The position numbers were made by a program, and so were the translations under genes. This document shows, one piece after another, positions 2,199-20,000 of a DNA stretch of 20,000 nt. The notes under the pieces were generated by a model. That model saw only the letters and a program-made list of their open reading frames with translations. It had not been told where the DNA came from and did not search any database. Origin of the DNA: an uncultured virus (IMG/VR IMGVR_UViG_3300035698_024194) (taxonomy: Duplodnaviria > Heunggongvirae > Uroviricota > Caudoviricetes); IMG/VR virus record IMGVR_UViG_3300035698_024194; one strand, 5' to 3'. How positions within the stretch are numbered: position 1 is the stretch's first letter; every line of letters begins with the position of its first letter.

Positions 2199-3083
2199 CT
2201 ACATGTATGGATGGATCATCATTACTATTTTTCTATGTAATGATGCATTAAAAGCTTCTAAATATGGAGGAAACAATCCTCCCGATGGGAGAGTAGAAGC
2301 CCCTAATGTTGCCATAAATCTCATTTCATCTTCAAACATTGGAATAGAAGATAATCCTAGATTTCGATTCTTTAAAACATACCCTATAAAAAAAGATAAA
2401 TCTATTCCAGGAAATACACCTGATTCAGAAAGTATCTTAATAAAATCTCGAGCATTACTTAAATCATAATCATCAAAATCAATATTAAAGTCTTTTTGTG
2501 TTACACGACTTCTTACTGCTTTCTTATAAGATACCTTTTGAGGTATTCCATAAAAAGATGTAAGTATATATGTTATACATATAAATCTCAATTTAGGAAT
2601 CATCTCTTGATAAGAAGCCATTATACCATATTTCTTGCCAAATAATTTCATAAGAAGATCTGTAAAATAATCAGATACTTCAATTTGAGTATTTATTTTA
2701 AGGGGTTTCAATGTATAAAGTTTACACAAATACCCATAGAATATAACTGAATATAATGTTCTAGGATCAATATTAGTAATTTCTTTTTTACCAAGTACCT
2801 GTAAATTAATGAGAACACGTTTTGTTTTTATATTAAATGCAGCAGGTAAAGGATATTTAATAAGGCGTACAAAATCAACATCATCAAAGTTATCTTCAAT
2901 TTTTCTTACCATTAAAGATGTAGAAAAATGATTTATCCTATGAAGTAATAACTTAATTGTTCTTATAATATTCTCGTGATCATATTCATCGACTTTAAAA
3001 GCATCAATTGTTGATTGCGACTGAGTAAATACATTAGGAATATTATTTAATAAATTTAATTTTAGTTTTGGAATATCCTTCAT
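2199..3083 (-). CDS. Hypothetical protein (294 aa)
   Basis: Long ORF coupled to the upstream gene by TAATG overlap; no motif recognised. Confidence 0.75.
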   Translation of the reverse strand: MKDIPKLKLNLLNNIPNVFTQSQSTIDAFKVDEYDHENIIRTIKLLLHRINHFSTSLMVRKIEDNFDDVDFVRLIKYPLPAAFNIKTKRVLINLQVLGKKEITNIDPRTLYSVIFYGYLCKLYTLKPLKINTQIEVSDYFTDLLMKLFGKKYGIMASYQEMIPKLRFICITYILTSFYGIPQKVSYKKAVRSRVTQKDFNIDFDDYDLSNARDFIKILSESGVFPGIDLSFFIGYVLKNRNLGLSSIPMFEDEMRFMATLGASTLPSGGLFPPYLEAFNASLHRKIVMMIHPYM

Positions 3084-3856
3084 TATTCAGTTGAATCCTT
3101 AGCATATTGTACTTCTAATACCATATCAGTTTTAATAAACCCAAGAAGCCCAGGACCTTCATCACAATCATCATCTTTCCATGATATCCTACGAAGTACT
3201 CCATCATATGAGGCAATCACATTATAATCAATATCATGAATAAAATTACCACCATGTTCAATTTTAAATGAAACAGTTTCTTCGATTACTTTATGTGCTA
3301 GATCTACTATCCCAGCAGCTTCCATCCCCGCATCAACTTCAAATTTTTGTCTAACCCAATATTTAGCTTCTATATCTGTAGCCACGGTTCCCTCCTCGTC
3401 AACTGATGTTGGCGGTTTAATTTTAGATTCATATAAAGCAAGTAACTTTTCAGATACTAATTCATCATTATTTAATAAAGTAAATTCATTATTAACACTA
3501 CATTTCGCTAATTCTAAAATAGATGAATATGAAGGGACCAATACTTCATATGTATTAAATTGCTCAATACAAGACATATCGTTTACAAATAATATTATAT
3601 ACCATAAAGTTTCAGTTCCATATTCTTTTTCAGATAAATAATCAGGTCTAAATTGAAACTTAGAATCCAATATAATTTTTTTACTTTCTTTCATTAAGAA
3701 AAAACGATTTTTCTCTAATGTATATAAAGAAGGAGATGAGAATACTACTTCTAATCCAGTAGAATCATCTATTTCTTTATATTTCTTACGGAATTTATCT
3801 TCATCTGTAGCGAGTAATCTGTTAACATTGGATTCTTGATCAATTCTTGCTGCCAC
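3083..3856 (-). CDS. Baseplate wedge protein, T4 gp53-like LysM domain plus C-terminal beta domain
   Basis: FRPDYLSEKEYGTETLWYIILFVND matches the gp53/LysM-like RPD-x-[IL]S-xx-YG-xxx-LW-x-IL-xx-N pattern; GTG start. Confidence 0.7.
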   Translation of the reverse strand: MAARIDQESNVNRLLATDEDKFRKKYKEIDDSTGLEVVFSSPSLYTLEKNRFFLMKESKKIILDSKFQFRPDYLSEKEYGTETLWYIILFVNDMSCIEQFNTYEVLVPSYSSILELAKCSVNNEFTLLNNDELVSEKLLALYESKIKPPTSVDEEGTVATDIEAKYWVRQKFEVDAGMEAAGIVDLAHKVIEETVSFKIEHGGNFIHDIDYNVIASYDGVLRRISWKDDDCDEGPGLLGFIKTDMVLEVQYAKDSTE

Positions 3857-7225: not shown

Positions 7226-7238
7226 TTTATTTTTGTTC
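7226..7238 (-). promoter_or_regulatory. Candidate promoter motif GAACAAAAATAAA
   Basis: Overlaps the end of the recombinase gene, begins 54 nt upstream of start 7184. Confidence 0.4.
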
Positions 7239-8615
7239 TATTATACTTTCTAACCTCTCCTCAATTTCAGAAACTACCTTCTCAGTAGAGAATTTATCAA
7301 TATATTCAGTTTTAATAACATCTTTTACTGAATCATCAAATGCCTTTTTAAATTCTTCATTTTCAGCATATTTAGCAGGCAATTCTTTTTTCCTACATTT
7401 AACATTTGGCAATATTGCTAATTTAGCCCACCCACCTGCTGCGTCTGCTCTCTTAAATGTATTAAGAAGATGCCAATTAGTCCAGAAATTACTTACACCT
7501 TTATTGAAATCTACTATCAACTGAATAGGTATTTTTGGTGGAAATAATTTATTCTTGACAAACATTGCTTCAAGCATTACTCCATTAAATCCCCATTCCT
7601 CTACCTTTAAATCGCCCTTAACCTTAAGTAAAAGCATATGGAAAGCATTATATTTAAGTGCATTACCACCAGGCATCGTCTTATCACCAATCCATCTCAG
7701 GTCGTTGGCAGTTTTAAACATACCCATATCAATCTTTTCTCGTAACTGATTTACTACTATAAGACCAATATTATATTCTTCAAGTTTAGCAACATACTTT
7801 GGAAGAAGTGTTGATATTACACGAGCACGTAATCCGATGAATTTATTAATATCCATCTCTGTACTCTCTTTTTCTTTTTCAGTTATTGTATTAGCAATTG
7901 AATCCCATGCAATTATACTAGGATTCTCTTGAAGATTTTTAAGTTCTTTAAAAGCACTTACTGCTTCAATTGTCTTAAATACACTTTCAACTGATTTAGC
8001 TGGATGTGGAGTAACAGGTGGATTTTGAACACCTAAACTGATAAGTCTTTGTTTTGTTGTTGCTTCTTCAGAATCCATATAAACATTTAATACTCTACCA
8101 CGATATTTCTTTTGATTGGTAGCAATTGTTTGTCCTAATAATGCACTTTTAAATGTTCCAGGATTACCTATAATAAGAGTAACTGCTCCAGCTGCAAATC
8201 CGCCACCTGCTATTATATCAAGTAAATCCACACCAGTAGGAAGAAGATACTTCGTACCACTACCTTGTGATATTTCAGCTTTTTCTTTTATAAACCCAAG
8301 AAGTTCTTTTTGAAGTTCTGCAGATGATATCAATTCTGCATTAGACAATTCATCTTTATCATATTCCAATTCATCTTCAACTGTTTTCTTCTTTTCCTTT
8401 TCTTTTTCCTTTTCTTTTATATTTTTTGTTTCATCATGTTTCTTTTTATTATCTCTTATTTGTTTCTTTTCCTCTGCAGTCAAATTTTTAGCAATTGCAT
8501 CTGCGATTCCTGCTGGAGTCTTTTCTACTTCTTTCTCCAAAGCAGCATCATTAATTTCAGTGCTATCTCCCTCAATGCCAGTATCATCATCTAAATTCAA
8601 TTCATCTTTACCCAT
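7227..8615 (-). CDS. recA: RecA/UvsX-family recombinase with charged N-terminal extension
   Basis: LPTGVDLLDIIAGGG, Walker A GNPGTFKS, YMDSE, Walker B IIAWDSIA, VVNQLREKI, PGGNALKYNA, VKNKLFPP; SD AAGGAGG. Confidence 0.93.
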   Translation of the reverse strand: MGKDELNLDDDTGIEGDSTEINDAALEKEVEKTPAGIADAIAKNLTAEEKKQIRDNKKKHDETKNIKEKEKEKEKKKTVEDELEYDKDELSNAELISSAELQKELLGFIKEKAEISQGSGTKYLLPTGVDLLDIIAGGGFAAGAVTLIIGNPGTFKSALLGQTIATNQKKYRGRVLNVYMDSEEATTKQRLISLGVQNPPVTPHPAKSVESVFKTIEAVSAFKELKNLQENPSIIAWDSIANTITEKEKESTEMDINKFIGLRARVISTLLPKYVAKLEEYNIGLIVVNQLREKIDMGMFKTANDLRWIGDKTMPGGNALKYNAFHMLLLKVKGDLKVEEWGFNGVMLEAMFVKNKLFPPKIPIQLIVDFNKGVSNFWTNWHLLNTFKRADAAGGWAKLAILPNVKCRKKELPAKYAENEEFKKAFDDSVKDVIKTEYIDKFSTEKVVSEIEERLESIIEQK

Positions 8616-9025: not shown

Positions 9026-9727
9026 TTATTTACCTATCTTCAGAAAGAATACTTTATTTTTTGTACGAAAAATCCCATTATCAATATAGAAAAATTTATC
9101 TTTAAGTATCACTGGTGGCTCATTTACTCTTGATATATTCTCCACTGGCGTGTGTCCAAATACAAAAGTTGTGTTTTTATAAATAGGAAGAATTTTAGGT
9201 TGATAATCAGACTTCTTTAATTTTTGAAGAAAATTGTCAGAATCATATATTAGATTGAGTTTACTTTGTGCTTGAGGAGATTTGTTTGTTTGCCATGAAG
9301 CGTGCGACATGATCCAATCAATAGTACCTATCTTTTCGTGATAATACCACCTCAATTTTTCAGTCATATCAATAAATTGTTTATATGTATATGTACCATT
9401 TTCAATTTCTTCTATAACAATATTAGCTATATTTTTATTTTTTGTGTATCCCGCATGTCCACCAAACCACGCCCACATTTTATTAGTATTTCCTGAATCA
9501 AATCTCCTCAAAACCTCATTTCTCATTCGCGCTTCACTGTTCCCGATTACAAATACATATTTTGGATTATCAATATTATCAAACATAAATTTTAGGCATT
9601 CTCGTTGCTCTCTGCCTTTATTAAAAAAATCACCAAGAATAATAAGTTTTTTAAATCCACTAGGAATACTTCTTTTGAATTTTGTAAAACATGCGTGTAC
9701 ATCACTAATTACAAAAATTCCACCCAT
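9026..9727 (-). CDS. Calcineurin-like metallophosphoesterase (PPP-like) with atypical catalytic motifs
   Basis: ISDVHAC, LGDFFNKG, IGNSE, SHAS, FGHTP, IDNG in canonical order. Confidence 0.88.
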   Translation of the reverse strand: MGGIFVISDVHACFTKFKRSIPSGFKKLIILGDFFNKGREQRECLKFMFDNIDNPKYVFVIGNSEARMRNEVLRRFDSGNTNKMWAWFGGHAGYTKNKNIANIVIEEIENGTYTYKQFIDMTEKLRWYYHEKIGTIDWIMSHASWQTNKSPQAQSKLNLIYDSDNFLQKLKKSDYQPKILPIYKNTTFVFGHTPVENISRVNEPPVILKDKFFYIDNGIFRTKNKVFFLKIGK

Positions 9728-10527
9728 TATATATACGCCTTAATAAGAGTTAAATTTAATTTTCTTATTTTCCAAGCATCTTTCATTTTTTGTCGAATTG
9801 TCTCAGTATGTTTTTTACCATAATATCCATTTTTTTCACCCATTATACTTTTACTTATATTATTTCTCCATTCAATTGTAATTTTTCGATTTTTAAGTTT
9901 TTTACATGTTTCTTTTGAAATAATACGAGTCTTCTGAAATTCAGAATTTTGTTTTCTTGTTTCTTTTGAATGGTGTTTTCCATAAAATGAATTTTTTTCT
10001 CCTACACGTAATTTAGCAGCATCACTACATTTTTTCTTAGTTTCTTCTGAAAGAATTCTACCTGTAGAAGCAATACTTATTTTTTCCCGAGTTTCAATAC
10101 TTAATTTACGACCTGTGCAGCTTCTGCTTCTTTTTCGTTTTTGTTCTTCATTATATTTATAACCTGATGTACCTTCTCCTCCATCAGTCATATTTGTTAA
10201 AGATCCTAATTTTAAATCATTTCTACCTATCATCCATATTAACCATATTTCAAGATCAAAAGCTTCTTGTTCTTTTAAATCTTCTTCAACTTTTAAAATT
10301 ATAGGTTCTAAATTTTCTTTTAAAATTTTTCTAATCTTATTTAATTTATGTTGATTATATTTTTCAAAATTGGTTTTAGCTTCCCTCAAATGAGCACTTG
10401 ATTGTATCCCTTTTCCTTTACCTACATAGAAAGGTTCATATTCAAACTTATATTTTCCATATGTAAATATCCCCTTACATCGAGGATCTAAATAAATATA
10501 AGTATAAAATTTCCTTTCCTCGCTCAT
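9727..10527 (-). CDS. Free-standing GIY-YIG homing endonuclease with NUMOD3 repeats
   Basis: FYTYIYLDPR...PFYVGKG, LTNMTDGGEG, GEKNSFYGKHHSKETRK, GEKNGYYGKKHTETIRQKM. Start placed at ATG 10527 after AAGGGAG, avoiding a 65-nt overlap. Confidence 0.88.
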   Translation of the reverse strand: MSEERKFYTYIYLDPRCKGIFTYGKYKFEYEPFYVGKGKGIQSSAHLREAKTNFEKYNQHKLNKIRKILKENLEPIILKVEEDLKEQEAFDLEIWLIWMIGRNDLKLGSLTNMTDGGEGTSGYKYNEEQKRKRSRSCTGRKLSIETREKISIASTGRILSEETKKKCSDAAKLRVGEKNSFYGKHHSKETRKQNSEFQKTRIISKETCKKLKNRKITIEWRNNISKSIMGEKNGYYGKKHTETIRQKMKDAWKIRKLNLTLIKAYI

Positions 10528-10534
10528 AACTCCC

Positions 10535-11080
10535 TTATACACTTTTTTGAAGAAGTTTAACTTTATCTTTAATTTTTCGTATTTCAATTTTATAATCATT
10601 TTTACAAGAAACAGGATTAATATGACGATTACATTTATTCATTCTATTTCCAAGAGCAATCATTGTATCTTGATATGCTTTTATTTTTGTTTTAACAAGA
10701 CATTTTGTTAAGGCGTCTCCACGAAATCTTTTACATCCATCAATATATTTTTTAGCAATCATTTTATAAAACATCACAGACAACGTACCTGCCGCCATTA
10801 TACCTGCTCCAACTTTTCCTGTTTTTGCAGTTTTTGGATACTTAACAGCAGCATCTCTTATTTTATTATTTATATTTTTATATGCTCCATATAATGTCTG
10901 CTCATCTAATTTATGTAATTTATTTTTACCGCCTGTAATCACACGAATTAATTGTTCATCCGTTGCTTCATTTAAAACAAATAATTTCAATCCACAGGGA
11001 TCTGATTTTTCTTCTATTATATCTACAAGTGTTGATCTTATAATAGGAATAAGATCAACACCATCAATTATTAAATTCAT
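10535..11080 (-). CDS. Putative membrane-anchored Cys-motif protein, paralog 3
   Basis: Hydrophobic helix VGAGIMAAGTLSVMFYK, then C...C...CNRHINPVSC. Confidence 0.75.
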   Translation of the reverse strand: MNLIIDGVDLIPIIRSTLVDIIEEKSDPCGLKLFVLNEATDEQLIRVITGGKNKLHKLDEQTLYGAYKNINNKIRDAAVKYPKTAKTGKVGAGIMAAGTLSVMFYKMIAKKYIDGCKRFRGDALTKCLVKTKIKAYQDTMIALGNRMNKCNRHINPVSCKNDYKIEIRKIKDKVKLLQKSV

Positions 11081-11092
11081 AATAAAATCTTC

Positions 11093-11569
11093 TTAATTCA
11101 ATTGAGCTTTAGCGTCTATTATTGTACCTTTGTTTTGAGCTATCTTTACCTTACATGCTCCCATTTTCTTAATAACAAGTTTTCTACATTTTTCAGGATC
11201 TTTAGTATTTTTACATTTAGCAAGCATTGGTTTATAAAGTTTTAATTGTGCAATTTGTTCTTTCATTTTACAACTAGCAACACATAATTGTTTTCCAGCA
11301 GTATTAACTACAGCATCCATAACATTATAACTACATTTACGAACACATTTACTTGCAGCTATTTGAATACCTTTATATAATGCCCAAGCACTAGGAAAAA
11401 ATAAAAATAATCCAACAACACTCCATACGGTATTTGAAGTTACACTTTCTTTTAATATAAGTTTTCTAATTTCTTTCTCGTTCATTGAATGAAGACGTTC
11501 TAATAATGTAACATTAGGATTATCTTTAAGAGATATATATTCTACTAACAACTTTTTTATGCTTGCCAT
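11093..11569 (-). CDS. Putative membrane-anchored Cys-motif protein, paralog 2
   Basis: Helix VWSVVGLFLFFPSAWALYK, then CxxxC...CxxxC...CKNTKDPEKC; SD AAGGAG. Confidence 0.75.
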   Translation of the reverse strand: MASIKKLLVEYISLKDNPNVTLLERLHSMNEKEIRKLILKESVTSNTVWSVVGLFLFFPSAWALYKGIQIAASKCVRKCSYNVMDAVVNTAGKQLCVASCKMKEQIAQLKLYKPMLAKCKNTKDPEKCRKLVIKKMGACKVKIAQNKGTIIDAKAQLN

Positions 11570-11593
11570 TTTAAATACTCCTTATTTAATTTA

Positions 11594-12379
11594 CTATTCT
11601 TTTAATTTGGCCATATTAGCTTCATGTTTACTTATAGCCTTTGAGTATCTAGATTTGCAGTCCATAGGATTTCCTGCTCTATTACATTGGCTAACAGCTG
11701 TTCTTAATGCTCGTACAGCTTCTCTTTCAGCATTTAATTTTATATTTGTTATACATTGTTTAAAATCACTACCAATTTTACCAGCACATCTTTTAGCATT
11801 AGCTGATAAGAATTTTTTATAAACCCAAGAAGAAGCTCCAGCTACTGCTACTGATCCAGCTACCCACTTACCATATTTAGAAACATTAGGATGAGATTTT
11901 AAATAAGATTTAACTCCACTATTCATTCTATTATACATTTTCAAGAAAGATGCTTTTGCTTCCGCAGATTTTTCTTTTACTCCTTCTTCAAGCAATTCAT
12001 CGACATGTTCAAGCAATTCAGTTTTTTCTTCTACACTAAGTTTAAATGATTCACATACATCCACCATTTCTTGTTGAAACTTATCTTCATGCTCTACTAC
12101 TTCATTTCCTTCTAAAAGCTCAGGATACATATTTTCTAATTCATTTACAATACCTGATACAGCAAATGCTTCAAGAACATCGCCAGGAAGATATTTTTCC
12201 TGTCTACGTGTATTAAATACTAAATTAAGCATTTGTTCGTATGTTGCATCTTCACGAATAAATTGAGCAGTCTCTAAAAGAGCTTCTCCAAAATATTGTG
12301 GATCTTGTTTACATTCACCTAAAAGAAATGATCGCATAACATAAATTAAATCATTTCTATCATTTTCATTGAGTATCAT
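11594..12379 (-). CDS. Putative membrane-anchored Cys-motif protein, paralog 1, with acidic N-terminal half
   Basis: Glu-rich N-half, helix WVAGSVAVAGASSWVYKK, then C...C...CNRAGNPMDC; SD GGAGG. Confidence 0.78.
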   Translation of the reverse strand: MILNENDRNDLIYVMRSFLLGECKQDPQYFGEALLETAQFIREDATYEQMLNLVFNTRRQEKYLPGDVLEAFAVSGIVNELENMYPELLEGNEVVEHEDKFQQEMVDVCESFKLSVEEKTELLEHVDELLEEGVKEKSAEAKASFLKMYNRMNSGVKSYLKSHPNVSKYGKWVAGSVAVAGASSWVYKKFLSANAKRCAGKIGSDFKQCITNIKLNAEREAVRALRTAVSQCNRAGNPMDCKSRYSKAISKHEANMAKLKE

Positions 12380-12428
12380 TTTTTATATCCTCCATACTAA
12401 TTTATAATCAAATAAAGTACATAACCTC

Positions 12429-12442
12429 TTTATTTTTTGTTC
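12429..12442 (-). promoter_or_regulatory. Candidate promoter motif GAACAAAAAATAAA
   Basis: Intergenic, begins 63 nt upstream of start 12379. Confidence 0.45.
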
Positions 12443-12461
12443 AATATACTACATGAGAAGG

Positions 12462-13550
12462 TTACTCGTTTAATTCACTAAGTGCCTTTATAAGACATCC
12501 TTGAGCGACTGCAGCAAGAGGATCATCTGCAGGTCTAATTTCTTTTACATTAACTGGAAATCCTTCAAACGACTCAAATGTATTTCTAAAAAAGTCAATA
12601 AAACCTGTTGCAAGGCTTGTGCCACCAGATACAATTATAGGAAGTTCTTCTGGTATTTCAACTGACTCTGCAATTTCTTCAAATTTCTTACTTGTAAGAC
12701 TAAGAGAGTAATTAATTAAACTTTCATAATAATACATAATAGCTTCACGAATTCTTTTCTCTTTCTTATCGCCTTTATTAAAATCCATTAAATCAGTACC
12801 TTTTTCTTTTAATGCTGTAACACGCCCTAATGCTTTAATTCCTAATGATGTTGCTGCATTCTGATCAATCCAATCTCCCCCACGAGTCACAGAAAATGAT
12901 AATGCTGGGTTTCTTCTATATGCTAAACATATATTAGTCATACCTGAACCATAATCAATCGCAATCCCTGAAAACTTTTCTTCTTCACATTGAGAATATA
13001 TAACCGCTAATGATTGACTTAAAGAAATTGCTTTATAACCCAACTGAGTAATTATTCTTCCAAACACTCTCTCGTGATATATAACTGATAAATCAGAATC
13101 AATAGGAGTTGCGGGAACAGAATATACACATATGTCCCCCTTACTTCCTTTACCTATCATATTAGAAATCATAAGTTTAAGAACATCAATTGAATCAATT
13201 TCAGAAGTGGATATTAATCCTTTTTCCATACATCTTCTAGGAGATCCTCCAAATATATTTGAATATCTATAAGCATGTTCTCCAATTATAAATGTAGAAT
13301 CATCTCCCTTTATATGATCAATATCTGTTAAATCTGCATCATCATTATTGCCTACAGTAAGAAACATATTACGAGTAGTAGACATTTCAGTTTTTTCAGT
13401 TTTTACATCATGTACAGCAGCAACAAGATTCATCGTTCCTACATCTAATCCTACTACTTTTTTACCCATTTTAGTCTCCTCTTTATTTTGCAAATCAATA
13501 ATTCCATCATCTTTAGTTTCAACAAATGGTATACCAGCGTTTTTTGTCAT
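12462..13550 (-). CDS. Actin-like ATPase (MreB/FtsA superfamily, volactin-like)
   Basis: Phosphate-1 GLDVGTMN, phosphate-2 AIDYGSGMTN, RGGDWID, adenosine IIVSGGTS, connect-2 DPLAAVAQG. Second in-frame ATG at 13469 has its own AGGAG. Confidence 0.92.
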   Translation of the reverse strand: MTKNAGIPFVETKDDGIIDLQNKEETKMGKKVVGLDVGTMNLVAAVHDVKTEKTEMSTTRNMFLTVGNNDDADLTDIDHIKGDDSTFIIGEHAYRYSNIFGGSPRRCMEKGLISTSEIDSIDVLKLMISNMIGKGSKGDICVYSVPATPIDSDLSVIYHERVFGRIITQLGYKAISLSQSLAVIYSQCEEEKFSGIAIDYGSGMTNICLAYRRNPALSFSVTRGGDWIDQNAATSLGIKALGRVTALKEKGTDLMDFNKGDKKEKRIREAIMYYYESLINYSLSLTSKKFEEIAESVEIPEELPIIVSGGTSLATGFIDFFRNTFESFEGFPVNVKEIRPADDPLAAVAQGCLIKALSELNE

Positions 13551-13925
13551 TTATTCCTCCTTGAGAGATTTAGCACTTGCTGCAAAATCTTTCGATGTAG
13601 TAGTTGTAATATTATCGTTTTGAGTATTTATAACTAATTCAGTATCATCAATGGTAGGAATAAACTCAGGACTTTGTTCAATAGAATTAGCTTCGATTGG
13701 TATATTCGCAGTCCCTATTTGTTTTTCAATTATAATTTGTTTACTTCCTAACTGGGTTTGTTGCTCAATAGCTTCTCTATTTTCACGTGTAGCTTTTTTA
13801 ATGTCTTTCAAATTTATGTTTACTTCATCCATTTTATTAGATAAATCACCAAGAAATTGAGACATCATATTTATTACTTTAAGAGTAGAAGCTTTTTCCT
13901 CTAGGAGGGTTTGAATTAATTTCAT
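13551..13925 (-). CDS. Hypothetical protein: coiled-coil N-half, low-complexity C-half
   Basis: Start placed at ATG 13925 (MKLIQTLLEE), avoiding overlap; stop directly abuts the actin-like gene start. Confidence 0.7.
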   Translation of the reverse strand: MKLIQTLLEEKASTLKVINMMSQFLGDLSNKMDEVNINLKDIKKATRENREAIEQQTQLGSKQIIIEKQIGTANIPIEANSIEQSPEFIPTIDDTELVINTQNDNITTTTSKDFAASAKSLKEE

Positions 13926-13944
13926 TGTTGACCACCATATTCTT

Positions 13945-14427
13945 TTAATGAAACGTAACATTTGGATTTTTCTTTTTATAATATTCAGTTTCTAATTCAT
14001 CCATAAGTTGATCTTTTTGCATTTTAAATTGTTCATCTTGAAATTTATTAGCCGCTTCCTGTCCATGATAAATCACAGGAAGTCCTTCTTCATCTATTTC
14101 TTGTTTAGATAAATAAAAATTCGGAAGAAAATCAAGTTCACTAATTCCACTAAGATGTAATATATTAACAAGATTAACAGCACCAAGAGGTTCAATATTT
14201 ACAGAAAGACTAATCAAATACATCTCTCTTTCTTCATTCCACATAATATGAACAACTCCCCTAATAACCAATGCTTGTGAAAGTTCTACTATATTAAAAT
14301 CTTTTGCTTCATACCCCAATTCGTATTGAAGTATTGAAATTATTAATTCTAATTTTTCTAGCCACGTTATGGCTGATTCAAATAGAGGTCTCCACTTAGT
14401 AGCATCGGGTATAGGGCGAGTATCCAT
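13945..14427 (-). CDS. Hypothetical acidic protein (160 aa)
   Basis: ORF with AAGGA upstream; no motif recognised. Confidence 0.7.
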   Translation of the reverse strand: MDTRPIPDATKWRPLFESAITWLEKLELIISILQYELGYEAKDFNIVELSQALVIRGVVHIMWNEEREMYLISLSVNIEPLGAVNLVNILHLSGISELDFLPNFYLSKQEIDEEGLPVIYHGQEAANKFQDEQFKMQKDQLMDELETEYYKKKNPNVTFH

Positions 14428-14446
14428 TAATTTGTCCTTTTAAATG

Positions 14447-16375
14447 TTAAGCCGCGTTTTCTTTTTTAGAATCTTCTAAGTAATTAAATTTTCTATTAGG
14501 GAAATCACAATCTCTTCTTGCTTGATTCCAATTTTTAACATCTGTAAAATATCCAACAACACGAGTATAATTATTAACAATTTTTCCACCACACATAGGA
14601 CATACCTTATCTGTCGATTTACCTAAACTTATATGTTCATTTTCACATATATTAAATGATGGATTTAATGCAAAATGTTCTAATCCACATTCAACAGCAT
14701 ATTTAATAAGATCTTCCATTTGTTGTGGAGTAGCAGCACACCCAATATTTAAATGACATATTGACCCTCCTGTCATACTTGCACATAGTTGCCCATCGAT
14801 GTTTGCTCTATCAATAAGATCAACATCTTCAAATAGTGGTACAAATTGATTACTATACAATTGATATGGATAATTTTCATCGTTAAAATATATTTTATCT
14901 TGTTTAGCTAATGTTGATGCCGCACCCTCACCTGGTATTTGTTCTAGGTTAAATGCTACACCATCTTCTTTTGAATATCCTTCTAGTTTCTTTTCAATAA
15001 ATGAAAAAACTTTTTTAGCAAAATCAATACCTTCAGGAGTTGTTATATTATAACCCATTTCTTTTAATGATTCCCACAATGCAATAATACCAACAGTACT
15101 AAACATACGTTCAAGAATAAGCCAATCCATTTTGAAAAATTTTAAAAATCCTTGTGCAATTCTTATTTCAAGAATCTTTCTTTGACATAATAATAATTTT
15201 CTTGACTCTTCAAGTCGTTGTTCAAGAAGTGCAAAGTACTTAGTTTCATATCTTTCTGATTCACGCCCTATTCTTGCAAGATTCAATGTTACAACTCTTG
15301 CGCTACCTAATGATAAACCAGCATTACCAAATGAGTCAAATCTAGAATATTCTTTCATCATTTCTGTATTATTAACCATTCTGCAACAAGATGCTAATTT
15401 AGCTGCTCCACGTGTAATATAAATATTAAATATACCTTCCTTATTATAAATACAAGCATCACGAAGAAAATTTTTATCAATTATATCGCCTTCAGGAGTT
15501 GAATGAATATTTAAAGTAGTAACAGGAAACCTATAAGGAAGCCCGCTAGTAGGATCTTTTTCAGCCATAAACTCAAGAAATATATTTTGAAGTTGAATTA
15601 CATATTCAATATCAGCTTTAGATCCATCAGGATTAGTCCAATCCTTAAATGTAGTTTCAAGTACATGTCTATCCATAATTGAAACATTTGTAAATGCACT
15701 TTGCCCACCAATCCTATATGTTTGATTAAGCGAATGAATAATTCTTTGGTAATCATTTTTTATTCTCTTTTTATTTTCTACTGGATCAACTCCATCTTTC
15801 TTATAATAATATTGAAGACATACAAAAAGGTCAGGAATTGCTAATGCTCCAGCTTGTTCGTGCGCAATATCAAAAACACTTTCAATCAATACTGCGATAA
15901 ATGAATCACTTCTTTTGGGAGGTTTTGATTGTAGTTGGCCATATGGGCGCCCTACCATAATATTAGCTGCTGACCATGCCCAACAATAAGGAATTGAAAC
16001 TCCAGCATTTCCAGAAAGATCATGAAAATATAATCCTCCTGTAATAAGTTCATTTAAACAAGTATCTGCAGTTTCATCATCATATAACTTAGTCATTTGT
16101 TTATGAATTAATGCTAATGAATTTACTTTGTTTAACCCCTTATACACTTCTGCTATAAAGTGATTGGGAGATTTTGATTTTGATCCAACATTTGCATTTA
16201 CATCAATGGTTCTATCTCCCTCTTCCTCTGAAAAATACAGTCTTCCCATTGATGCTGGATCTAGTTTATCTCTGGATATTCCCATCATTTCCAAATACTT
16301 TTTTCCCTTATCAGTATAAGTAAAATGATTATATAGATCCACAAATCGTTTATCGTATGACATCTCTAATCTCAT
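14447..16375 (-). CDS. nrdD: Anaerobic (class III) ribonucleoside-triphosphate reductase, no N-terminal ATP cone
   Basis: LYFHDL, PYC, FTNVSIMD, FPVTT, ASCCR, EQIPGE, Zn site CENEH..CPMCG, glycyl-radical motif YTRVVGYF. Confidence 0.95.
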   Translation of the reverse strand: MRLEMSYDKRFVDLYNHFTYTDKGKKYLEMMGISRDKLDPASMGRLYFSEEEGDRTIDVNANVGSKSKSPNHFIAEVYKGLNKVNSLALIHKQMTKLYDDETADTCLNELITGGLYFHDLSGNAGVSIPYCWAWSAANIMVGRPYGQLQSKPPKRSDSFIAVLIESVFDIAHEQAGALAIPDLFVCLQYYYKKDGVDPVENKKRIKNDYQRIIHSLNQTYRIGGQSAFTNVSIMDRHVLETTFKDWTNPDGSKADIEYVIQLQNIFLEFMAEKDPTSGLPYRFPVTTLNIHSTPEGDIIDKNFLRDACIYNKEGIFNIYITRGAAKLASCCRMVNNTEMMKEYSRFDSFGNAGLSLGSARVVTLNLARIGRESERYETKYFALLEQRLEESRKLLLCQRKILEIRIAQGFLKFFKMDWLILERMFSTVGIIALWESLKEMGYNITTPEGIDFAKKVFSFIEKKLEGYSKEDGVAFNLEQIPGEGAASTLAKQDKIYFNDENYPYQLYSNQFVPLFEDVDLIDRANIDGQLCASMTGGSICHLNIGCAATPQQMEDLIKYAVECGLEHFALNPSFNICENEHISLGKSTDKVCPMCGGKIVNNYTRVVGYFTDVKNWNQARRDCDFPNRKFNYLEDSKKENAA

Positions 16376-16861
16376 TTAAACGCCTCCTTGATTGATACTT
16401 AAAGTTTTAGGATCTGTTAAAACCCCATTAAGAAATATTCGCTGATTCGCTGAAGCAGGAAAACCTATCTGAAATTGTTCGTCTATATACTTTCCGTCGA
16501 TAATAATATCAATCAAGTTACGTATATCATCCGATAATTTCTCGAATTCATATCCTGTGTATAATATTGTTTTTAAACCATATTCTTTACATGTTGATGT
16601 TAATTTTATAACTGCTTCTTCTTGTAAAATTGGTTCGCCGCCACAGAAGCAAACACTTGTAATTAACTTGCGTGAATTTTTTATCTTCTCCTTTATTTCT
16701 GTTATATTTACTAATTTCCCATTTTGTGCATCCCAACTTCTTACATTTTGACAATTAAAGCATTTATGATGACACCCGCAAAAAAATATTGTTAAACAGA
16801 TTCCTTCTAATTGCGGGTCATCATTAAGTACAACCTGTGTTCCTAATATATTAATTTCCAT
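16376..16861 (-). CDS. nrdG: Anaerobic RNR activating enzyme (radical SAM)
   Basis: GCHHKCFNCQN (CxxxCxxC), GGEP, YTGY, DIIIDGKY, SANQRI; adjacent to nrdD. Confidence 0.93.
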   Translation of the reverse strand: MEINILGTQVVLNDDPQLEGICLTIFFCGCHHKCFNCQNVRSWDAQNGKLVNITEIKEKIKNSRKLITSVCFCGGEPILQEEAVIKLTSTCKEYGLKTILYTGYEFEKLSDDIRNLIDIIIDGKYIDEQFQIGFPASANQRIFLNGVLTDPKTLSINQGGV

Positions 16862-17241
16862 TATTTCCCTTTAGCCCATATCCACATTTTCGGATCTTTT
16901 TTAGTTCGTATTAACCAATATGTGCCTCTTATTTTTGATCCTTTAAAATGAACTCCTATTTTATTCGGTTTCCACTCTAACAGAATACAAACTCCTTTAT
17001 CTAATATTGAAACTTTACCTCTACCATAACCATCTTTTATTATACCTTGAAAATTATAATAACTTAATGGGTGATCTTTTACCTGAACTGCTAATACAGG
17101 TTTACCTTTTGTTGGGAATTTGTGTTTAGGAATTGCCCATGATTTTAATTTGCCTTGATAGTAAATTCTTAAATCAAAATGGTGCCCGCTCGATGATTTT
17201 GCATAATGATCATGTATCACAAACCTTGTAGTTTTAGCCAT
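16861..17241 (-). CDS. Stand-alone LigD 3'-phosphoesterase (PE) domain protein
   Basis: FVIHDHYA..HHFDLRI..LKSWAIPK..LAVQVKDHPLSYYNFQGII..GYGRGKVSILDKG follows the LigD-N consensus. Confidence 0.9.
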   Translation of the reverse strand: MAKTTRFVIHDHYAKSSSGHHFDLRIYYQGKLKSWAIPKHKFPTKGKPVLAVQVKDHPLSYYNFQGIIKDGYGRGKVSILDKGVCILLEWKPNKIGVHFKGSKIRGTYWLIRTKKDPKMWIWAKGK

Positions 17242-17282
17242 ACGTAATTCCTAACTCCAATTTTAAAAAATAAATTTATTTA

Positions 17283-17295
17283 CACATATTTGTTC
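17283..17295 (-). promoter_or_regulatory. Candidate promoter motif GAACAAATATGTG
   Basis: In the 145-nt intergenic gap, begins 54 nt upstream of start 17241. Confidence 0.4.
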
Positions 17296-17386
17296 ATTAA
17301 AAATTCCTGATCAATCTTTCTTATGAATCTGGAACTCCTTAAATTTCCTTAGTTTTTATGTTCGTATAAGTAATATTTCATCTACC

Positions 17387-18106
17387 TTATTGTAATCTAC
17401 TTACAGCAAGAGCAATGCCAATACTGTCTGCGATGTCTTCGGAAATGCCTGTAATTGCTGTGATTTCTTTCCCCATTTTACCAAAAACTTTCTTACTATC
17501 TTTCTCAATATTCTTCAATGTCTTTTTCCTATTATCTATAATTCGCTTGAGGTTTTTCTCTTCAATTTCAGTATTTATTTTTTCTTTCTTTCCATGTTTT
17601 CTTAATTTATCTAGCTCTTGTTTTTTATATTTGATTTTATCTTTTAATTCAAATTGTAAATCAATCTCTTCTGTAATCAAATTATTAAAATTTTTTAATT
17701 GGTCTTCATTTATAAAATTAAATTTTTTCACTACTGCAAGAAGTGTTTGCCATTTCTGAGCATTCCCCTTAAGTTCTAATCCACAATTCTTTTTCCATTC
17801 CCCGACATTTATAATATGAATCACAGAATCACTATTACAATAACATCTTTGAATAATGACTCCGTTAATTCTTGCAAGAAGTGATAGCGTACGAACTCCT
17901 GAAGCAGATAGTAATGTATCCTCTATCCCAATTATATTAGGGGATGTATCTTTTACTATTTTATCAGTTTCATTAGCAATATGATCAAGACGCTCACCAA
18001 TTGTCATTTTATTAGTTGTTACAAAAGTACCATATTTGATTAACTTCCCATCTTCAATAAGTGACCAACCAGTAGTACTAGCTGGATCAAAAGCTAGAAC
18101 TTTCAT
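17387..18106 (-). CDS. ruvC: RuvC-like Holliday junction resolvase with coiled-coil insertion
   Basis: VLAFDPASTTGWS, IGIED, WKK...GNAQK, EDIADSIGIA. Confidence 0.88.
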   Translation of the reverse strand: MKVLAFDPASTTGWSLIEDGKLIKYGTFVTTNKMTIGERLDHIANETDKIVKDTSPNIIGIEDTLLSASGVRTLSLLARINGVIIQRCYCNSDSVIHIINVGEWKKNCGLELKGNAQKWQTLLAVVKKFNFINEDQLKNFNNLITEEIDLQFELKDKIKYKKQELDKLRKHGKKEKINTEIEEKNLKRIIDNRKKTLKNIEKDSKKVFGKMGKEITAITGISEDIADSIGIALAVSRLQ

Positions 18107-19398: not shown

Positions 19399-20000
19399 TT
19401 AACCTTTATCAAAAATTATGAAAGGCGCACTTGCAGTTTCAAATTTATCAATTAATTTTTCCCACTCTGCTTCGCCTTCAGAATATAATGCATCTCCGTT
19501 TAATGGGATTTCTCCAAAAGGTGTAGTTACTTGAGTATAAGTCTTTCTTAATGCCCCTACCTGTTTCTTAAAGGAAGCAAGACACAAGTCCTTAAAATAG
19601 GTAGCAAGGTCAGGAGGAATTGTGCTTAAGTCTTCTAAATGTACTCGACTATAATATAAAGCCCCCTGTCCTCTCCATTGTGGAGTAATCTGAACTTGAT
19701 CGGGTGGATAATAATGGATAGTATAATTATATATACTAAACTGTTTTAAATTGTTTGATTGAAATGCGCCTAATAGCATTTCTTGTGGAATACTCCCATA
19801 ATTAAATGCTCCCATCAATGGATGTCCTGTCATCATTTCATTCCCTGCAGGGGGCACAAATTCATCAAGTGAAAGTATTTGTCTTCCATCGGGATCATGA
19901 ACATAAAACATATCCGGCCTATTAGGCACACGAATATTAGAAGAATTTCCATTCAAACTCATTGTCCGTTTATCCGGAAAATAAGTAGAAAATTTACCGA
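19399..20000 (-). CDS. Neck/head-completion protein, T4 gp13-like (5' end beyond window)
   Basis: C-terminus YFKDLCLASFKKQVGALRKTY...TPFGEIPLNGDALYSEGEAEWEKL parallels the gp13 C-terminal pattern. Frame is open upstream of 19962 (GKFSTYFPDKRT) to the window edge. Confidence 0.72.
   Translation of the reverse strand, partial: GKFSTYFPDKRTMSLNGNSSNIRVPNRPDMFYVHDPDGRQILSLDEFVPPAGNEMMTGHPLMGAFNYGSIPQEMLLGAFQSNNLKQFSIYNYTIHYYPPDQVQITPQWRGQGALYYSRVHLEDLSTIPPDLATYFKDLCLASFKKQVGALRKTYTQVTTPFGEIPLNGDALYSEGEAEWEKLIDKFETASAPFIIFDKG

What the first reader, a model, noticed from the sequence alone, without database searches (positions are those of the whole stretch)
12462..13925. Phage-encoded volactin-like actin with an abutting partner gene: candidate viral actin cytoskeleton
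Seen: all actin-fold motifs are intact (GLDVGTMN, DYGSGMTN, SGGTS, PLAAVAQG), and the gene sits among phage structural and replication genes. The upstream 124-aa gene (coiled coil, then ...PEFIPTIDD...FAASAKSLKEE) ends one base before its start. From memory, the strings GLDVGTMN, PIDSDLS.YH, AVIYS, GMTN.CLAY and FS..RGGDW.D resemble haloarchaeal volactin (VolA) and its bacterial relatives more than MreB, ParM or FtsA. Known: nucleus-forming jumbo phages use the tubulin PhuZ, and few phage actins are characterised (e.g. AlpC of CGP3). Inference: a filament plus adaptor pair that positions phage DNA or capsids, or reshapes the host.
Basis: partly seen in the sequence, partly recalled or inferred. 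Interest (0 to 1): 0.85.

Follow-up and report, generated by a model that had tools for sequence, protein, structure and literature searches.

The report
Phage volactin-type actin with adaptor gene
An uncultured large phage carries its own actin-type filament gene of the recently named volactin family, paired with a small fast-evolving partner gene whose conserved tail probably docks onto the actin, so the phage probably builds its own filaments, something not yet described for phages in the papers I could search.

Summary
ORF 12462-13550 (-) encodes a 362-aa protein that matches Pfam Volactin (PF25216) end to end (E 2.8e-68, 231 bits, cut-off 35), with no MreB hit. Its model is a confident actin fold (pLDDT 86).

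The abutting 124-aa upstream gene (13551-13925) is a long helix followed by a disordered tail. The tail (an FIP motif, then a short terminal helix) recurs in the gene just upstream of volactin genes in 65 of 75 viral, 51 of 64 metagenome and 60 of 77 bacterial loci.

A fold of actin plus tail gave weak support: 0.59 against a best control of 0.00.

The surrounding genes are phage-like DNA metabolism genes (NrdD/NrdG, RecA/UvsX-like, RuvC, homing endonuclease), with weak hits to virion proteins.

Only 2 of 50,697 GenBank phage records hold a relative, both unannotated huge phages. My paper searches found no description of phage volactins.

Polymerisation, binding and cargo are inferred, not shown.

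This scan has noted the same module before on other DNA (8 earlier notes).

Verdict: a real finding, a new variant of a known kind (an actin plus adaptor system).

The parts
12462..13550 (-). Volactin-family actin gene, 362 aa (P0001). Residues 1-28 are a disordered N-terminal extension with a conserved I-I-D-L motif. Residues ~31-361 form the actin fold.
   Evidence: Pfam PF25216 E 2.8e-68, residues 33-356 on profile positions 3-321 of 321. AF2 model pLDDT 86, pTM 0.85, residues 1-28 below 50. Nearest solved folds are MreB, BeeR and MamK at about 16% identity. Invariant D36 G38 T39, G201 G203 N206, G309 G310 S312 in 23 relatives.
13551..13925 (-). Partner (adaptor) gene, 124 aa, with an alternative start at 13961 giving 136 aa (P0002). 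Long N-terminal helix (2-67), disordered linker, then the conserved tail.
   Evidence: Translation. Homologues P0272 and P0273 start at the same MKL. AF2 model: helix 2-67 with pLDDT about 90, and 63-85 below 50. No Pfam family above cut-off and no PHROG. pN/pS 0.40 against L161.
13554..13673 (-). Coding region of the conserved tail (residues 85-124 of the 124-aa protein): PEFIPTIDD, a short stretch L-x-I-x-T, then the terminal helix SKDFAASAKSLKEE. This is the proposed actin-docking peptide.
   Evidence: All invariant columns beyond position 39 in the 6-row clade alignment lie here: F88 P90 D93 L97 T101 K112 D113 A115 A118 K119 L121. A tail profile trained on 104 other tails scores the window protein E 9.4e-4, 16 bits. 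Complex fold with residues 70-124: weak support, 0.59, best control 0.00.
13556..13562 (-). Shine-Dalgarno AAGGAGG for the actin gene, inside the last codons of the partner gene. The partner stop TAA (13553-13551) directly abuts the actin ATG (13550).
   Evidence: Read from the sequence. The layout fits coupled translation, which is an inference.
13945..14427 (-). orf160 (P0274), of unknown function. It is conserved immediately upstream of the partner in the closest relatives and may be a third member of the unit, or only a neighbour.
   Evidence: tblastn matches in L161 (57%), L162 (41%) and L164 (31%), each just before the partner. No Pfam or PHROG family.

Best explanation
The window is a piece of a large uncultured tailed phage. 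It carries a two-gene module.

**Components.**
- Gene 1 (13551-13925) encodes a small adaptor: a long helix that probably forms a coiled coil, a flexible linker, and a conserved C-terminal tail (an FIP motif plus a short amphipathic helix).
- Gene 2 (12462-13550) abuts gene 1 and has its ribosome-binding site inside gene 1. It encodes an actin of the volactin family with all nucleotide-binding motifs intact.

**Proposed working.**
- The actin binds ATP and polymerises into dynamic filaments in the infected cell.
- The adaptor's tail docks on the actin, much as ParR, AlpA or the FtsZ tail dock on their actin-like partners.
- The adaptor's variable head ties the filament to a phage or host structure.
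- Because the pair sits inside the DNA replication, recombination and nucleotide-supply block, my best guess for the cargo is the replicating or packaging phage DNA, or its factory, during lytic growth.

**Shown here.** Family membership, the actin fold, intact motifs, purifying selection, and co-conservation of the partner and its tail across phages and bacteria.

**Inferred.** Polymerisation, tail docking (weak fold support only), coupled translation, and the cargo.
For: **Family and fold.**
- Pfam Volactin E 2.8e-68, full length.
- 452 relatives at E<=0.001 among 4170 candidates; the 120 listed all carry PF25216.
- 915 representatives at E<=0.001 in the exhaustive search.
- Confident actin-fold model. 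Nearest solved folds are the filament formers MreB, BeeR and MamK.

**The partner in the close clade.**
- The window is colinear with L161: actin 85%, partner 58%, NrdD 89% identity.
- The partner architecture is kept in L162, L164 and L163, where the actin is 74-60% identical.

**The tail across the family.**
- [FY][IVL]P occurs in the last 90 residues of 109 of 199 distinct upstream proteins, against 122 of 1961 other ORFs of the same loci.
- An iterated profile started from 59 partners gathered 170 proteins. All 170 lie upstream on the actin's strand: 156 adjacent, 12 at 450-1500 nt, and 2 at about 1.6-1.8 kb.
- That profile finds a partner in 65 of 75 viral, 51 of 64 metagenome and 60 of 77 genome loci that have at least 700 nt upstream.
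- It picked up L161's partner at round 3 (5e-5) and the window's at round 5 (7.4e-7).

**An autonomous module.** Of the conserved neighbour clusters in other viral loci, only the two partner clusters hit a window ORF clearly, and that ORF is the partner (E 0.0031 and 4.4e-5). One other cluster (cluster 9) reached E 5.1e-4 on an unrelated window ORF.

**Modular heads.** 13 partners, all from Magnetococcales, have membrane segments. 7 have CxxC..CxxC. The rest fall in neither class.

**Phage context.** NrdD, NrdG, UvsX/RecA-like, RuvC, GIY-YIG endonuclease, and baseplate-like and virion-protein PHROG hits.

**From papers.**
- In Haloferax volcanii, VolA forms dynamic filaments (PMC10869688, passages).
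- It lies next to a CdpA-like membrane protein, HVO_2016 (PMC12126565, passages).
Against: **No experiment.** Nothing shows polymerisation, ATPase activity or binding.

**The window partner's own family evidence is weak.**
- 16 bits (E 9.4e-4 among about 2060 sequences) for the tail profile.
- 14.2 bits and 8.7 bits for two partner-cluster profiles.
- L161's partner scored only E 0.18 with the tail profile.
- The round-5 score is not independent, because L161 was already in the profile by then.

**Profiles may drift.** The partners are rich in coiled coil and low-complexity sequence, which can mislead profiles. The fact that all 170 hits lie upstream of an actin argues against drift.

**No fusion evidence.** 29 N-terminally extended actins examined showed no FIP tail ahead of the actin domain, and the tail profile hit none of the 273 stored proteins except the window clade's own partners.

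**The cargo guess is thin.**
- It rests only on gene neighbourhood.
- The partner has no recognisable DNA-binding or membrane domain.
- No centromere-like repeats lie within 11000-17600.
- The promoter and terminator scans were uninformative.

**No VolA in the tree.** No haloarchaeal VolA sequence could be included.
Confidence: 0.62

Rival explanations
1. A ParMRC/AlpACS-type DNA partition or transport system. The partner would be a DNA-binding adaptor that links the filament to a centromere-like site on the phage genome, for example to keep a plasmid prophage or to move replicating DNA.
For: - The only characterised prophage actin works this way: AlpC, with adaptor AlpA and alpS sites (abstracts of PMC4446434 and PMC5539076).
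- The module lies among DNA replication and recombination genes.
- The layout is adaptor plus actin, with a tail that may dock (weak).
Against: - The partner has no DNA-binding family hit and models as a single long helix plus tail.
- No iterated repeats occur within 11000-17600, only weak two- to four-copy matches of 66-88% identity.
- The gene order is adaptor then actin, the reverse of the parM-parR order as I recall it.
- No integrase or lysogeny gene is seen in the 20 kb. That is a small sample of the genome.
- PF25216 does not ring in the Corynebacterium glutamicum control genome. If that strain carries CGP3, AlpC is not of this family.
Confidence: 0.15
2. Host take-over. The phage filament, through its adaptor, re-shapes or re-organises the host cell (envelope, division or shape) rather than carrying phage cargo.
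For: - VolA in Haloferax volcanii acts in cell shape (PMC10869688).
- Cellular members occur in Planctomycetota and Magnetococcales. The Magnetococcales partners carry membrane segments.
Against: - The window's partner has no membrane segment.
- There is no evidence on localisation.
- Nothing in the neighbourhood concerns the envelope.
Confidence: 0.1
3. An actin-fold ATPase that does not polymerise (a chaperone-, kinase- or EutJ-like role), with the upstream gene being merely a co-transcribed neighbour.
For: - The fold class also includes Hsp70 and EutJ. Hsp70-type proteins and EutJ appear among the fold matches.
- The partner evolves fast and has no known family.
Against: - The top solved matches are filament formers: MreB, BeeR, MamK and actin.
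- The Pfam family is defined on a filament former (PMC10869688).
- The partner's tail and its position are conserved across very different genomes.
- There is no Hsp70 family hit.
Confidence: 0.07
4. The window is not phage DNA but part of a cellular genome, plasmid or other element, so the 'viral cytoskeleton' reading does not apply.
For: - No capsid, portal or terminase gene lies in the 20 kb.
- The structural PHROG hits are weak and partial.
- There is no nucleotide match to any GenBank phage.
- No whole genome is held for the window.
- Volactin genes do occur in bacterial chromosomes.
Against: - All 28 long ORFs lie on one strand and are tightly packed; many have no family.
- There are UvsX-like (9e-43), NrdD/NrdG, RuvC-like and virion-protein PHROG hits, plus a GIY-YIG/NUMOD3 homing endonuclease that sits at other places in the relatives.
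- The RecA-like protein's only GenBank phage matches are large myovirus-type phages at about 28% identity.
- 428 relatives of the actin lie on IMG/VR viral contigs.
Confidence: 0.06

Closest known systems
Volactin (VolA, HVO_2015) of Haloferax volcanii; Pfam PF25216
   Same: Same Pfam family, matched full length at 231 bits. Both are actin-fold proteins. VolA forms dynamic filaments in vivo (PMC10869688, passages). VolA also has an adjacent candidate adaptor gene, the CdpA-like HVO_2016 (PMC12126565, passages).
   Different: This copy is phage-borne and AT-rich. Its partner is a 124-aa soluble helix-plus-tail protein, not a four-segment membrane protein. Whether HVO_2016 carries the same tail could not be tested, because no haloarchaeal locus could be fetched. 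VolA's role is host cell shape; here the role is unknown.
AlpC/AlpA/alpS of the Corynebacterium glutamicum prophage CGP3
   Same: A phage-encoded actin-like protein working with an adaptor, needed for efficient viral DNA replication and transport (abstracts of PMC4446434 and PMC5539076).
   Different: AlpA binds specific DNA sites. Here no DNA-binding domain or repeated site was found. The Volactin model does not ring in the C. glutamicum control genome, so AlpC is probably a different actin family.
ParM/ParR/parC plasmid partition (type II)
   Same: An actin-like filament plus a small adaptor whose C-terminal peptide docks on the filament protein (recalled knowledge, not tested here).
   Different: Different actin family. 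No centromere repeats. The adaptor gene lies upstream, not downstream. The adaptor has no ribbon-helix-helix or other DNA-binding hit.
MreB, MamK and BeeR (nearest solved structures)
   Same: Best fold matches: 7zpt MreB, 8r2n BeeR and 5ljv MamK, with TM 0.6-0.7. All are filament-forming bacterial actins.
   Different: Only about 16% identity. There is no MreB_Mbl Pfam hit for the window protein at E<=1. A profile of 23 relatives finds no solved relative by sequence (best true actin is MreB at E 0.17). The tree separates them with support 99.
PhuZ tubulin spindle of nucleus-forming jumbo phages
   Same: A phage-encoded cytoskeletal filament that organises infection (PMC7950403, passages).
   Different: PhuZ has the tubulin fold, not the actin fold. 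No adaptor of this kind is described for it. No PhuZ or phage-nucleus genes were seen in the window.

Membership tests
Volactin (Pfam PF25216) | Score above the family's curated cut-off over the whole domain | tested here: met
   231.2 bits against a cut-off of 35, E 2.8e-68, residues 33-356 on profile 3-321 of 321.
Volactin (Pfam PF25216) | Actin fold with intact phosphate-1, phosphate-2 and adenosine motifs | tested here: met
   GLDVGTMN, DYGSGMTN and SGGTS are present. D36 G38 T39, G201 G203 N206 and G309 G310 S312 are invariant in 23 relatives. AF2 pLDDT 86. Actin-type fold matches.
Volactin (Pfam PF25216) | Groups with VolA rather than with MreB, ParM, Alp or FtsA in a tree | tested here: inconclusive
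   164 volactin-type rows separate from 3 MreB_Mbl-family proteins of one genome (support 99, FastTree). No VolA, ParM, Alp or FtsA sequence could be included. In the control run the model passes its cut-off in 1 of 14 named genomes, Haloferax volcanii being among the 4 that ring.
Volactin (Pfam PF25216) | Forms dynamic filaments | not testable with these tools
   Known only for VolA (PMC10869688).
Volactin partner family (undescribed; variable head plus FIP/terminal-helix tail) | Encoded just upstream of the actin on the same strand | tested here: met
   Stop abuts the actin start. The same holds in L161, L162 and L164; in L163 one 89-aa ORF lies between.
Volactin partner family (undescribed; variable head plus FIP/terminal-helix tail) | Tail matches a profile built from other lineages' partners | tested here: met
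   The match is weak: E 9.4e-4, 16 bits, with a profile of 104 tails that excludes the window clade. L164's partner scores 2.6e-6, L162's 2.4e-3 and L161's 0.18. The iterated profile reaches the window at 7.4e-7 in round 5, after L161 had joined.
Volactin partner family (undescribed; variable head plus FIP/terminal-helix tail) | Binds the actin | not testable with these tools
   Direct binding would need a pull-down or peptide-binding assay. The one structure-prediction attempt is recorded under Tried and rejected.
ParMRC / AlpACS type DNA partition | Adaptor with a DNA-binding domain | tested here: not met
   No Pfam family above cut-off. The model is one long helix plus a tail.
ParMRC / AlpACS type DNA partition | Centromere-like iterated repeats beside the operon | tested here: not met
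   None within 11000-17600, only weak scattered matches. The rest of the genome is unknown.
MreB/Mbl (PF06723) | Match to the MreB_Mbl model | tested here: not met
   No match at E<=1 for the window protein.

The most novel reading that the evidence does not exclude
Volactin-type actin with a modular adaptor (a variable head plus a conserved FIP/terminal-helix docking tail) is a widespread cytoskeletal system that has not been studied. In the sample taken here its diversity lies largely in large and huge phages, with only compact clades in Planctomycetota and Magnetococcales. In phages it would build an actin-based scaffold or transport track for replication or assembly: an actin counterpart of the PhuZ tubulin spindle, with the adaptor head choosing the cargo.
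Probability: 0.35. Interest if true: 0.85.

Novelty: new variant of a known kind. Interest (0 to 1): 0.7.

Why it matters
**What is known so far.** Phage-built cytoskeletons are known mainly from the tubulin PhuZ in nucleus-forming jumbo phages, and from one prophage actin, AlpC.

**What this finding adds.**
- An actin family studied so far in a single archaeon turns out to be common on viral contigs: 428 relatives in IMG/VR.
- It is almost absent from GenBank phage records: 2 of 50,697, both unannotated.
- It travels with a conserved adaptor whose short tail gives a direct handle for experiments, such as peptide binding, point mutants and tagging.

**If the pair forms filaments in infected cells,** it opens three lines:
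- a second, actin-based way in which phages organise the host cell;
- a candidate volactin-binding peptide that would also be useful for the archaeal and planctomycete systems;
- a question about where this actin family arose, in viruses or in cells.

Tried and rejected
- **Actin plus tail co-fold.** I folded the actin (alignment of 23 rows) with residues 70-124 of the partner (alignment of 6 rows). The verdict was weak support. The score was 0.59 (three runs: 0.59, 0.67, 0.58) and the best of 3 controls was 0.00. The runs agree in at least 78% of their contacts, and the partner's pLDDT is at least 53. In the tool's calibration, 116 of 157 solved complexes and 2 of 215 mismatched pairs reached the mark. 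Only 18 of those 157 did so at 0.60 or under, as did both mismatches that passed, so a pass at this level is weak. My own alignments were used, so these counts hold only roughly. No interface or contacts were given.
- **Whole genome of the window:** none is held. L161's record is not held either.
- **Nucleotide search of the 20 kb against GenBank phages:** no match.
- **Single-protein scan of viral contigs:** 7 stretches, none confirmed. The alignment-based scan worked.
- **Fusion (Rosetta-stone) test:** the 29 N-terminally extended actins I inspected do not carry the FIP tail, and the tail profile hit none of them. The long forms turned out to be inteins, tandem actins or other fusions.
- **Names for possible haloarchaeal relatives** (P0171 and others, picked by acidic make-up): none carried an organism name, so VolA could not be placed in the tree.
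- **ESM Atlas for the partner and for a marine-phage partner:** no usable hit; one unnamed viral cluster at 0.78.
- **PHROGs for the neighbour clusters of other viral loci:** almost all unknown.
- **Promoter and terminator scans:** fewer promoter-like sites than in shuffles, and 1 terminator-like site against 1.5 expected.
- **Repeats and tRNAs:** nothing relevant.
- **RNA evidence:** no RNA holder listed among the 13 runs, so nothing can be said on expression.
- **Adjacency of an upstream same-strand ORF of at least 35 aa** (224 of 224 loci): I do not count this as evidence. The criterion is lenient and dense phage genomes would meet it by default.
- **Pfam DUF4615 for the partner:** 20.6 bits, below the cut-off of 27. 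I treat it as a coiled-coil artefact.
Full report
**1. What is in the sequence**

All long ORFs of the window lie on the minus strand, and G+C is about 30% throughout.

ORF 12462-13550 (-) translates to 362 residues holding GLDVGTMN, DYGSGMTN, SGGTS and PLAAVAQG.

The gene before it ends with TAA at 13553-13551, directly against the actin ATG at 13550. AAGGAGG lies at 13562-13556, inside the upstream gene's last codons.

The mechanical upstream ORF is 136 aa. The start at 13925 (124 aa) is the better one for three reasons:
- it has GGTGG 6 nt upstream;
- ATG 13961 has no such site and overlaps the previous gene;
- the only two database homologues (P0272, 99% identical, 124 aa; P0273, 64%, 128 aa) begin at the same MKL.

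**2. The actin**

*Family.*
- Pfam places the protein in Volactin (PF25216): E 2.8e-68, 231 bits against a cut-off of 35, covering profile positions 3-321 of 321.
- The only other family is FtsA at E 0.13, and MreB_Mbl does not appear at E<=1.
- PHROGs has no family for it.

*Relatives.*
- The word-indexed search gave 452 relatives at E<=0.001 among 4170 candidates. All 120 listed carry PF25216.
- The exhaustive search gave 915 representatives at E<=0.001 and 281 at E<=1e-30.

*Structure.*
- An AlphaFold2 model built on 23 relatives is confident: pLDDT 86, pTM 0.85. Residues 1-28 are disordered.
- The nearest solved structures are MreB (7zpt), BeeR (8r2n) and MamK (5ljv), at about 16% identity and TM 0.6-0.7.
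- By sequence, a profile of the 23 relatives finds no solved relative; the best actin is MreB at E 0.17.
- The library of predicted viral structures holds nothing close. Its best matches have 11-15% identity and are largely Hsp70-type, together with Bacillus phage G Gp506.

*Selection.*
- pN/pS against the 85%-identical relative is 0.21.
- A variant strain in a public run differs at 16 of 19 listed places in third codon positions.

**3. The surroundings**

Family hits:

| Window position (-) | Hit |
|---|---|
| 14447-16375 | NrdD |
| 16376-16861 | NrdG |
| 16861-17241 | LigD-type 3'-phosphoesterase domain |
| 17387-18106 | RuvC-like resolvase |
| 7227-8615 | RecA/UvsX-like recombinase (phrog_97, 9e-43) |
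| 9026-9727 | metallophosphatase |
| 9727-10599 | GIY-YIG/NUMOD3 homing endonuclease |
| 3083-3856 | weak partial baseplate-wedge hit (2.6e-9) |
| 19399-19962 | weak virion structural protein hit (2.2e-10) |

- There is no nucleotide match to GenBank phages.
- The RecA-like protein matches only large myovirus-type phages of Firmicutes and a few others, at about 28% identity.
- The window is colinear with a 103.5-kb metagenome contig, L161.

I read the window as a new lineage of large tailed phage, at about 90%. No capsid, portal or terminase gene lies in these 20 kb.

Nearly identical DNA occurs at low depth in three public runs labelled marine or salt lake metagenome. One 845-nt contig bridges orf160, the partner and the actin start without a difference. 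It may come from the source sample.

**4. The partner gene in the close clade**

Identity to the window falls much faster for the partner than for the actin:

| Locus | Actin | Partner |
|---|---|---|
| L161 | 85% | 58% |
| L162 | 74% | 32% |
| L163, L164 | about 60% | not detected by tblastn |

The positional equivalents nevertheless keep the same build. In L163 this is the ORF at 7267-7734, with an 89-aa ORF between it and the actin. The build is a helical head, then [PD]-F-[IV]-P-x-x-D, L-x-[IM]-[ST]-T, and a terminal K-D-[FI]-[AS]-x-x-A-[KA]-[KS]-L.

Beyond position 39, every invariant column of the six-row alignment lies in this tail.

The AlphaFold2 model shows one long helix (residues 2-67, pLDDT about 90), a disordered stretch, and a low-confidence end with a terminal helix at 114-123.

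pN/pS against L161 is 0.40, so it is a real, fast-evolving coding gene.

**5. The partner across the family**

I collected 240 loci around relatives of the actin: 80 each from viral, genome and metagenome contigs. Each set was the best 80 of 428, 361 and 394 confirmed relatives respectively.

*Motif count.* [FY][IVL]P occurs in the last 90 residues of 109 of 199 distinct upstream proteins, against 122 of 1961 other same-strand ORFs of at least 100 aa in the same loci.

*Tail profile without the window clade.* A profile trained on 104 tails scores:
- L164's partner 2.6e-6;
- the window's 9.4e-4 (16 bits);
- L162's 2.4e-3;
- L161's 0.18.

Several so-called controls scored well. These later proved to be true partners lying one gene further upstream.

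*Iterated profile.*
- Starting from the largest BLAST cluster (59 partners), it grew to 170 proteins in five rounds.
- All 170 lie upstream of an actin on its strand: 156 adjacent, 12 at 450-1500 nt, and 2 at about 1.6-1.8 kb. The search database held 1747 ORFs.
- L161's partner joined in round 3 (5e-5). The window's scored 7.4e-7 in round 5, which is not independent of L161.
- By this profile a partner is present in 65 of 75 viral, 51 of 64 metagenome and 60 of 77 genome loci with at least 700 nt upstream.
- This is a lower bound. Several misses (L162, L164, L001, L230) show the tail by eye.

*Heads differ.* Thirteen partners, all from Magnetococcales, have membrane segments. Seven have CxxC..CxxC. 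The remainder fall in neither class.

*No family for the partners.* None of six representative partners has a Pfam family above its cut-off.

*A public example.* The 485-kb uncultured phage LR745208.1, which has no annotation, carries the same pair. Its partner ends ...MFIPSNL...AMGALKAVRKK and overlaps the actin start.

**6. The pair is an autonomous module**

The other gene clusters that accompany the actin in other viral lineages have no counterpart in the window. Of the eleven cluster profiles, only the two partner clusters hit the window's partner (0.0031 and 4.4e-5). One other cluster (cluster 9) scored 5.1e-4 on an unrelated window ORF.

Here the pair lies in the DNA metabolism block. 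Earlier notes of this scan report it in neck or tail modules of other phages (I did not check this).

**7. Does the tail dock on the actin?**

One co-fold of the actin with partner residues 70-124 was run. Its verdict was weak support, so I do not count it as evidence. The score, controls and calibration counts are given under Tried and rejected.

The case for docking rests mainly on co-conservation and on analogy.

**8. Tree**

*Rows.*
- Of the 241 actin matches (240 loci plus the window), 217 were near full length (at least 900 nt and without a stop).
- After dropping rows more than 90% identical to a kept row, 164 remained.
- Three MreB_Mbl-family proteins of a Magnetococcales genome (497.7, 92.9 and 65 bits) served as the outgroup.

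*Result (FastTree).*
- The volactin-type rows separate from the outgroup with support 99.
- The window joins L161, then L163, then a 3.2-kb contig binned as an uncultured archaeon (supports 99, 98, 97).
- Planctomycetota (36 rows) and Magnetococcales (11 rows) each form one tight clade.
- Viral and metagenome rows are spread across the tree.

*Caveats.* The sample is the 80 best matches to a phage query in each collection, so this pattern is biased. No VolA sequence is in the tree.

**9. What is in print**

- 'volactin' occurs in 17 papers of the library. None of the 14 listed is about phages, judged by title and abstract.
- 'actin-like' with 'jumbo phage' and 'filament' gives 8 papers. In the two I opened, the term occurs only in reference lists or general text.
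- 'phage' with 'actin homolog', 'metagenom' and 'cytoskelet' gives 13 papers, none on phage actins by title.
- 'huge phages' with 'actin' gives hits that are Actinobacteria in the two papers I checked.
- The search for phage or viral actin phrases turned up AlpC/AlpA of prophage CGP3.

Papers outside the library, and the supplements of the VolA paper, were not seen.

**10. Earlier notes of this scan**

After I had formed the reading above, a look-up showed eight earlier notes on other genomes. They describe volactin-type actins with an upstream partner in large phages and in a planctomycete. They agree with my results.

One of them pointed to the CdpA-like neighbour of VolA. I confirmed this in PMC12126565.

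One reports a second, downstream partner. I find no counterpart of the common downstream clusters in this window.

**11. Verdict**

The finding is real.
- The actin is a member of a known family.
- What is new is a phage-borne module of this actin with a conserved tail-bearing adaptor family that has no entry in Pfam or PHROGs and, as far as my searches reach, no paper.
- Function is inferred. I put 0.62 on 'polymerising actin plus docking adaptor that organises phage replication or assembly'. Most of the remaining doubt concerns the cargo and the docking.

Noticed in passing
proteins P0124, P0126, P0136, P0149 and about a dozen more of 470-800 aa: Volactin homologues are interrupted by an intein (Intein_splicing plus an HNH endonuclease). 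The insert lies just after residue ~196, at the phosphate-2 loop of the actin fold. Inteins usually sit in conserved sites of important proteins.
   Followed up: partly
P0123, P0130, P0132; loci L157 and L159; P0157: Other architectures occur in the family. There are tandem double actins in one protein or as two adjacent genes. One 1160-aa protein joins a volactin domain to Wzz/GNVR and ParA-like (tyrosine-kinase-type) domains.
   Followed up: partly
window 13455-13550 (-), actin residues 1-32: The disordered N-terminal extension holds a short motif (D-G-I-I-D-L here), followed by a lysine-rich linker. D19 and L20 are at least 90% conserved in the 10-row close alignment, and a hydrophobic-hydrophobic-D-L motif is seen in 12 of 23 rows of the wider one. 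Its function is unknown; it may be a second docking peptide.
   Followed up: no
window 13945-14427 (-): orf160 has no known family. It is kept directly upstream of the partner in L161, L162 and L164, so the unit may have three genes.
   Followed up: partly
window 9727-10599 (-); L161 3355-3750; L163 678-1325, 3644-4201, 12454-13152: A GIY-YIG/NUMOD3 homing endonuclease sits at different places in the related contigs, with three copies in L163. It is a mobile gene that breaks an otherwise colinear order.
   Followed up: partly
window 11594-12379 (-) and L163 9133-11894: The 261-aa protein downstream of the actin has no family. Its N-terminal ~85 residues match five separate places in L163, which suggests a small paralogous gene family or repeated domain in these phages.
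   Followed up: no
window 16861-17241 (-): A stand-alone LigD-type 3'-phosphoesterase domain gene (E 7.5e-22) lies beside the anaerobic ribonucleotide reductase genes. This is unusual in a phage DNA-metabolism block.
   Followed up: no
protein P0272: The 99%-identical homologue of the partner is named 'diphthamide biosynthesis methyltransferase' by one source. Nothing in my searches supports that name, and it looks like an annotation error.
   Followed up: partly
L250 (LR745208.1 334917-340882) and L251 (LR756511.1 546298-552293): Two public, unannotated huge-phage genomes (485 and 595 kb) carry volactin-type genes. The first has a clear partner with the FIP tail. The second has only a 76-aa upstream ORF with a W-A-I-P-E-F string.
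   Followed up: partly
L242 and L246 (genome G001, contig 4, 587276-588250 and 598910-599866): In a Magnetococcales genome a second actin-like gene (MreB_Mbl model, 65 bits) lies about 11 kb from the volactin gene. I did not check whether this region is a magnetosome gene cluster.
   Followed up: no
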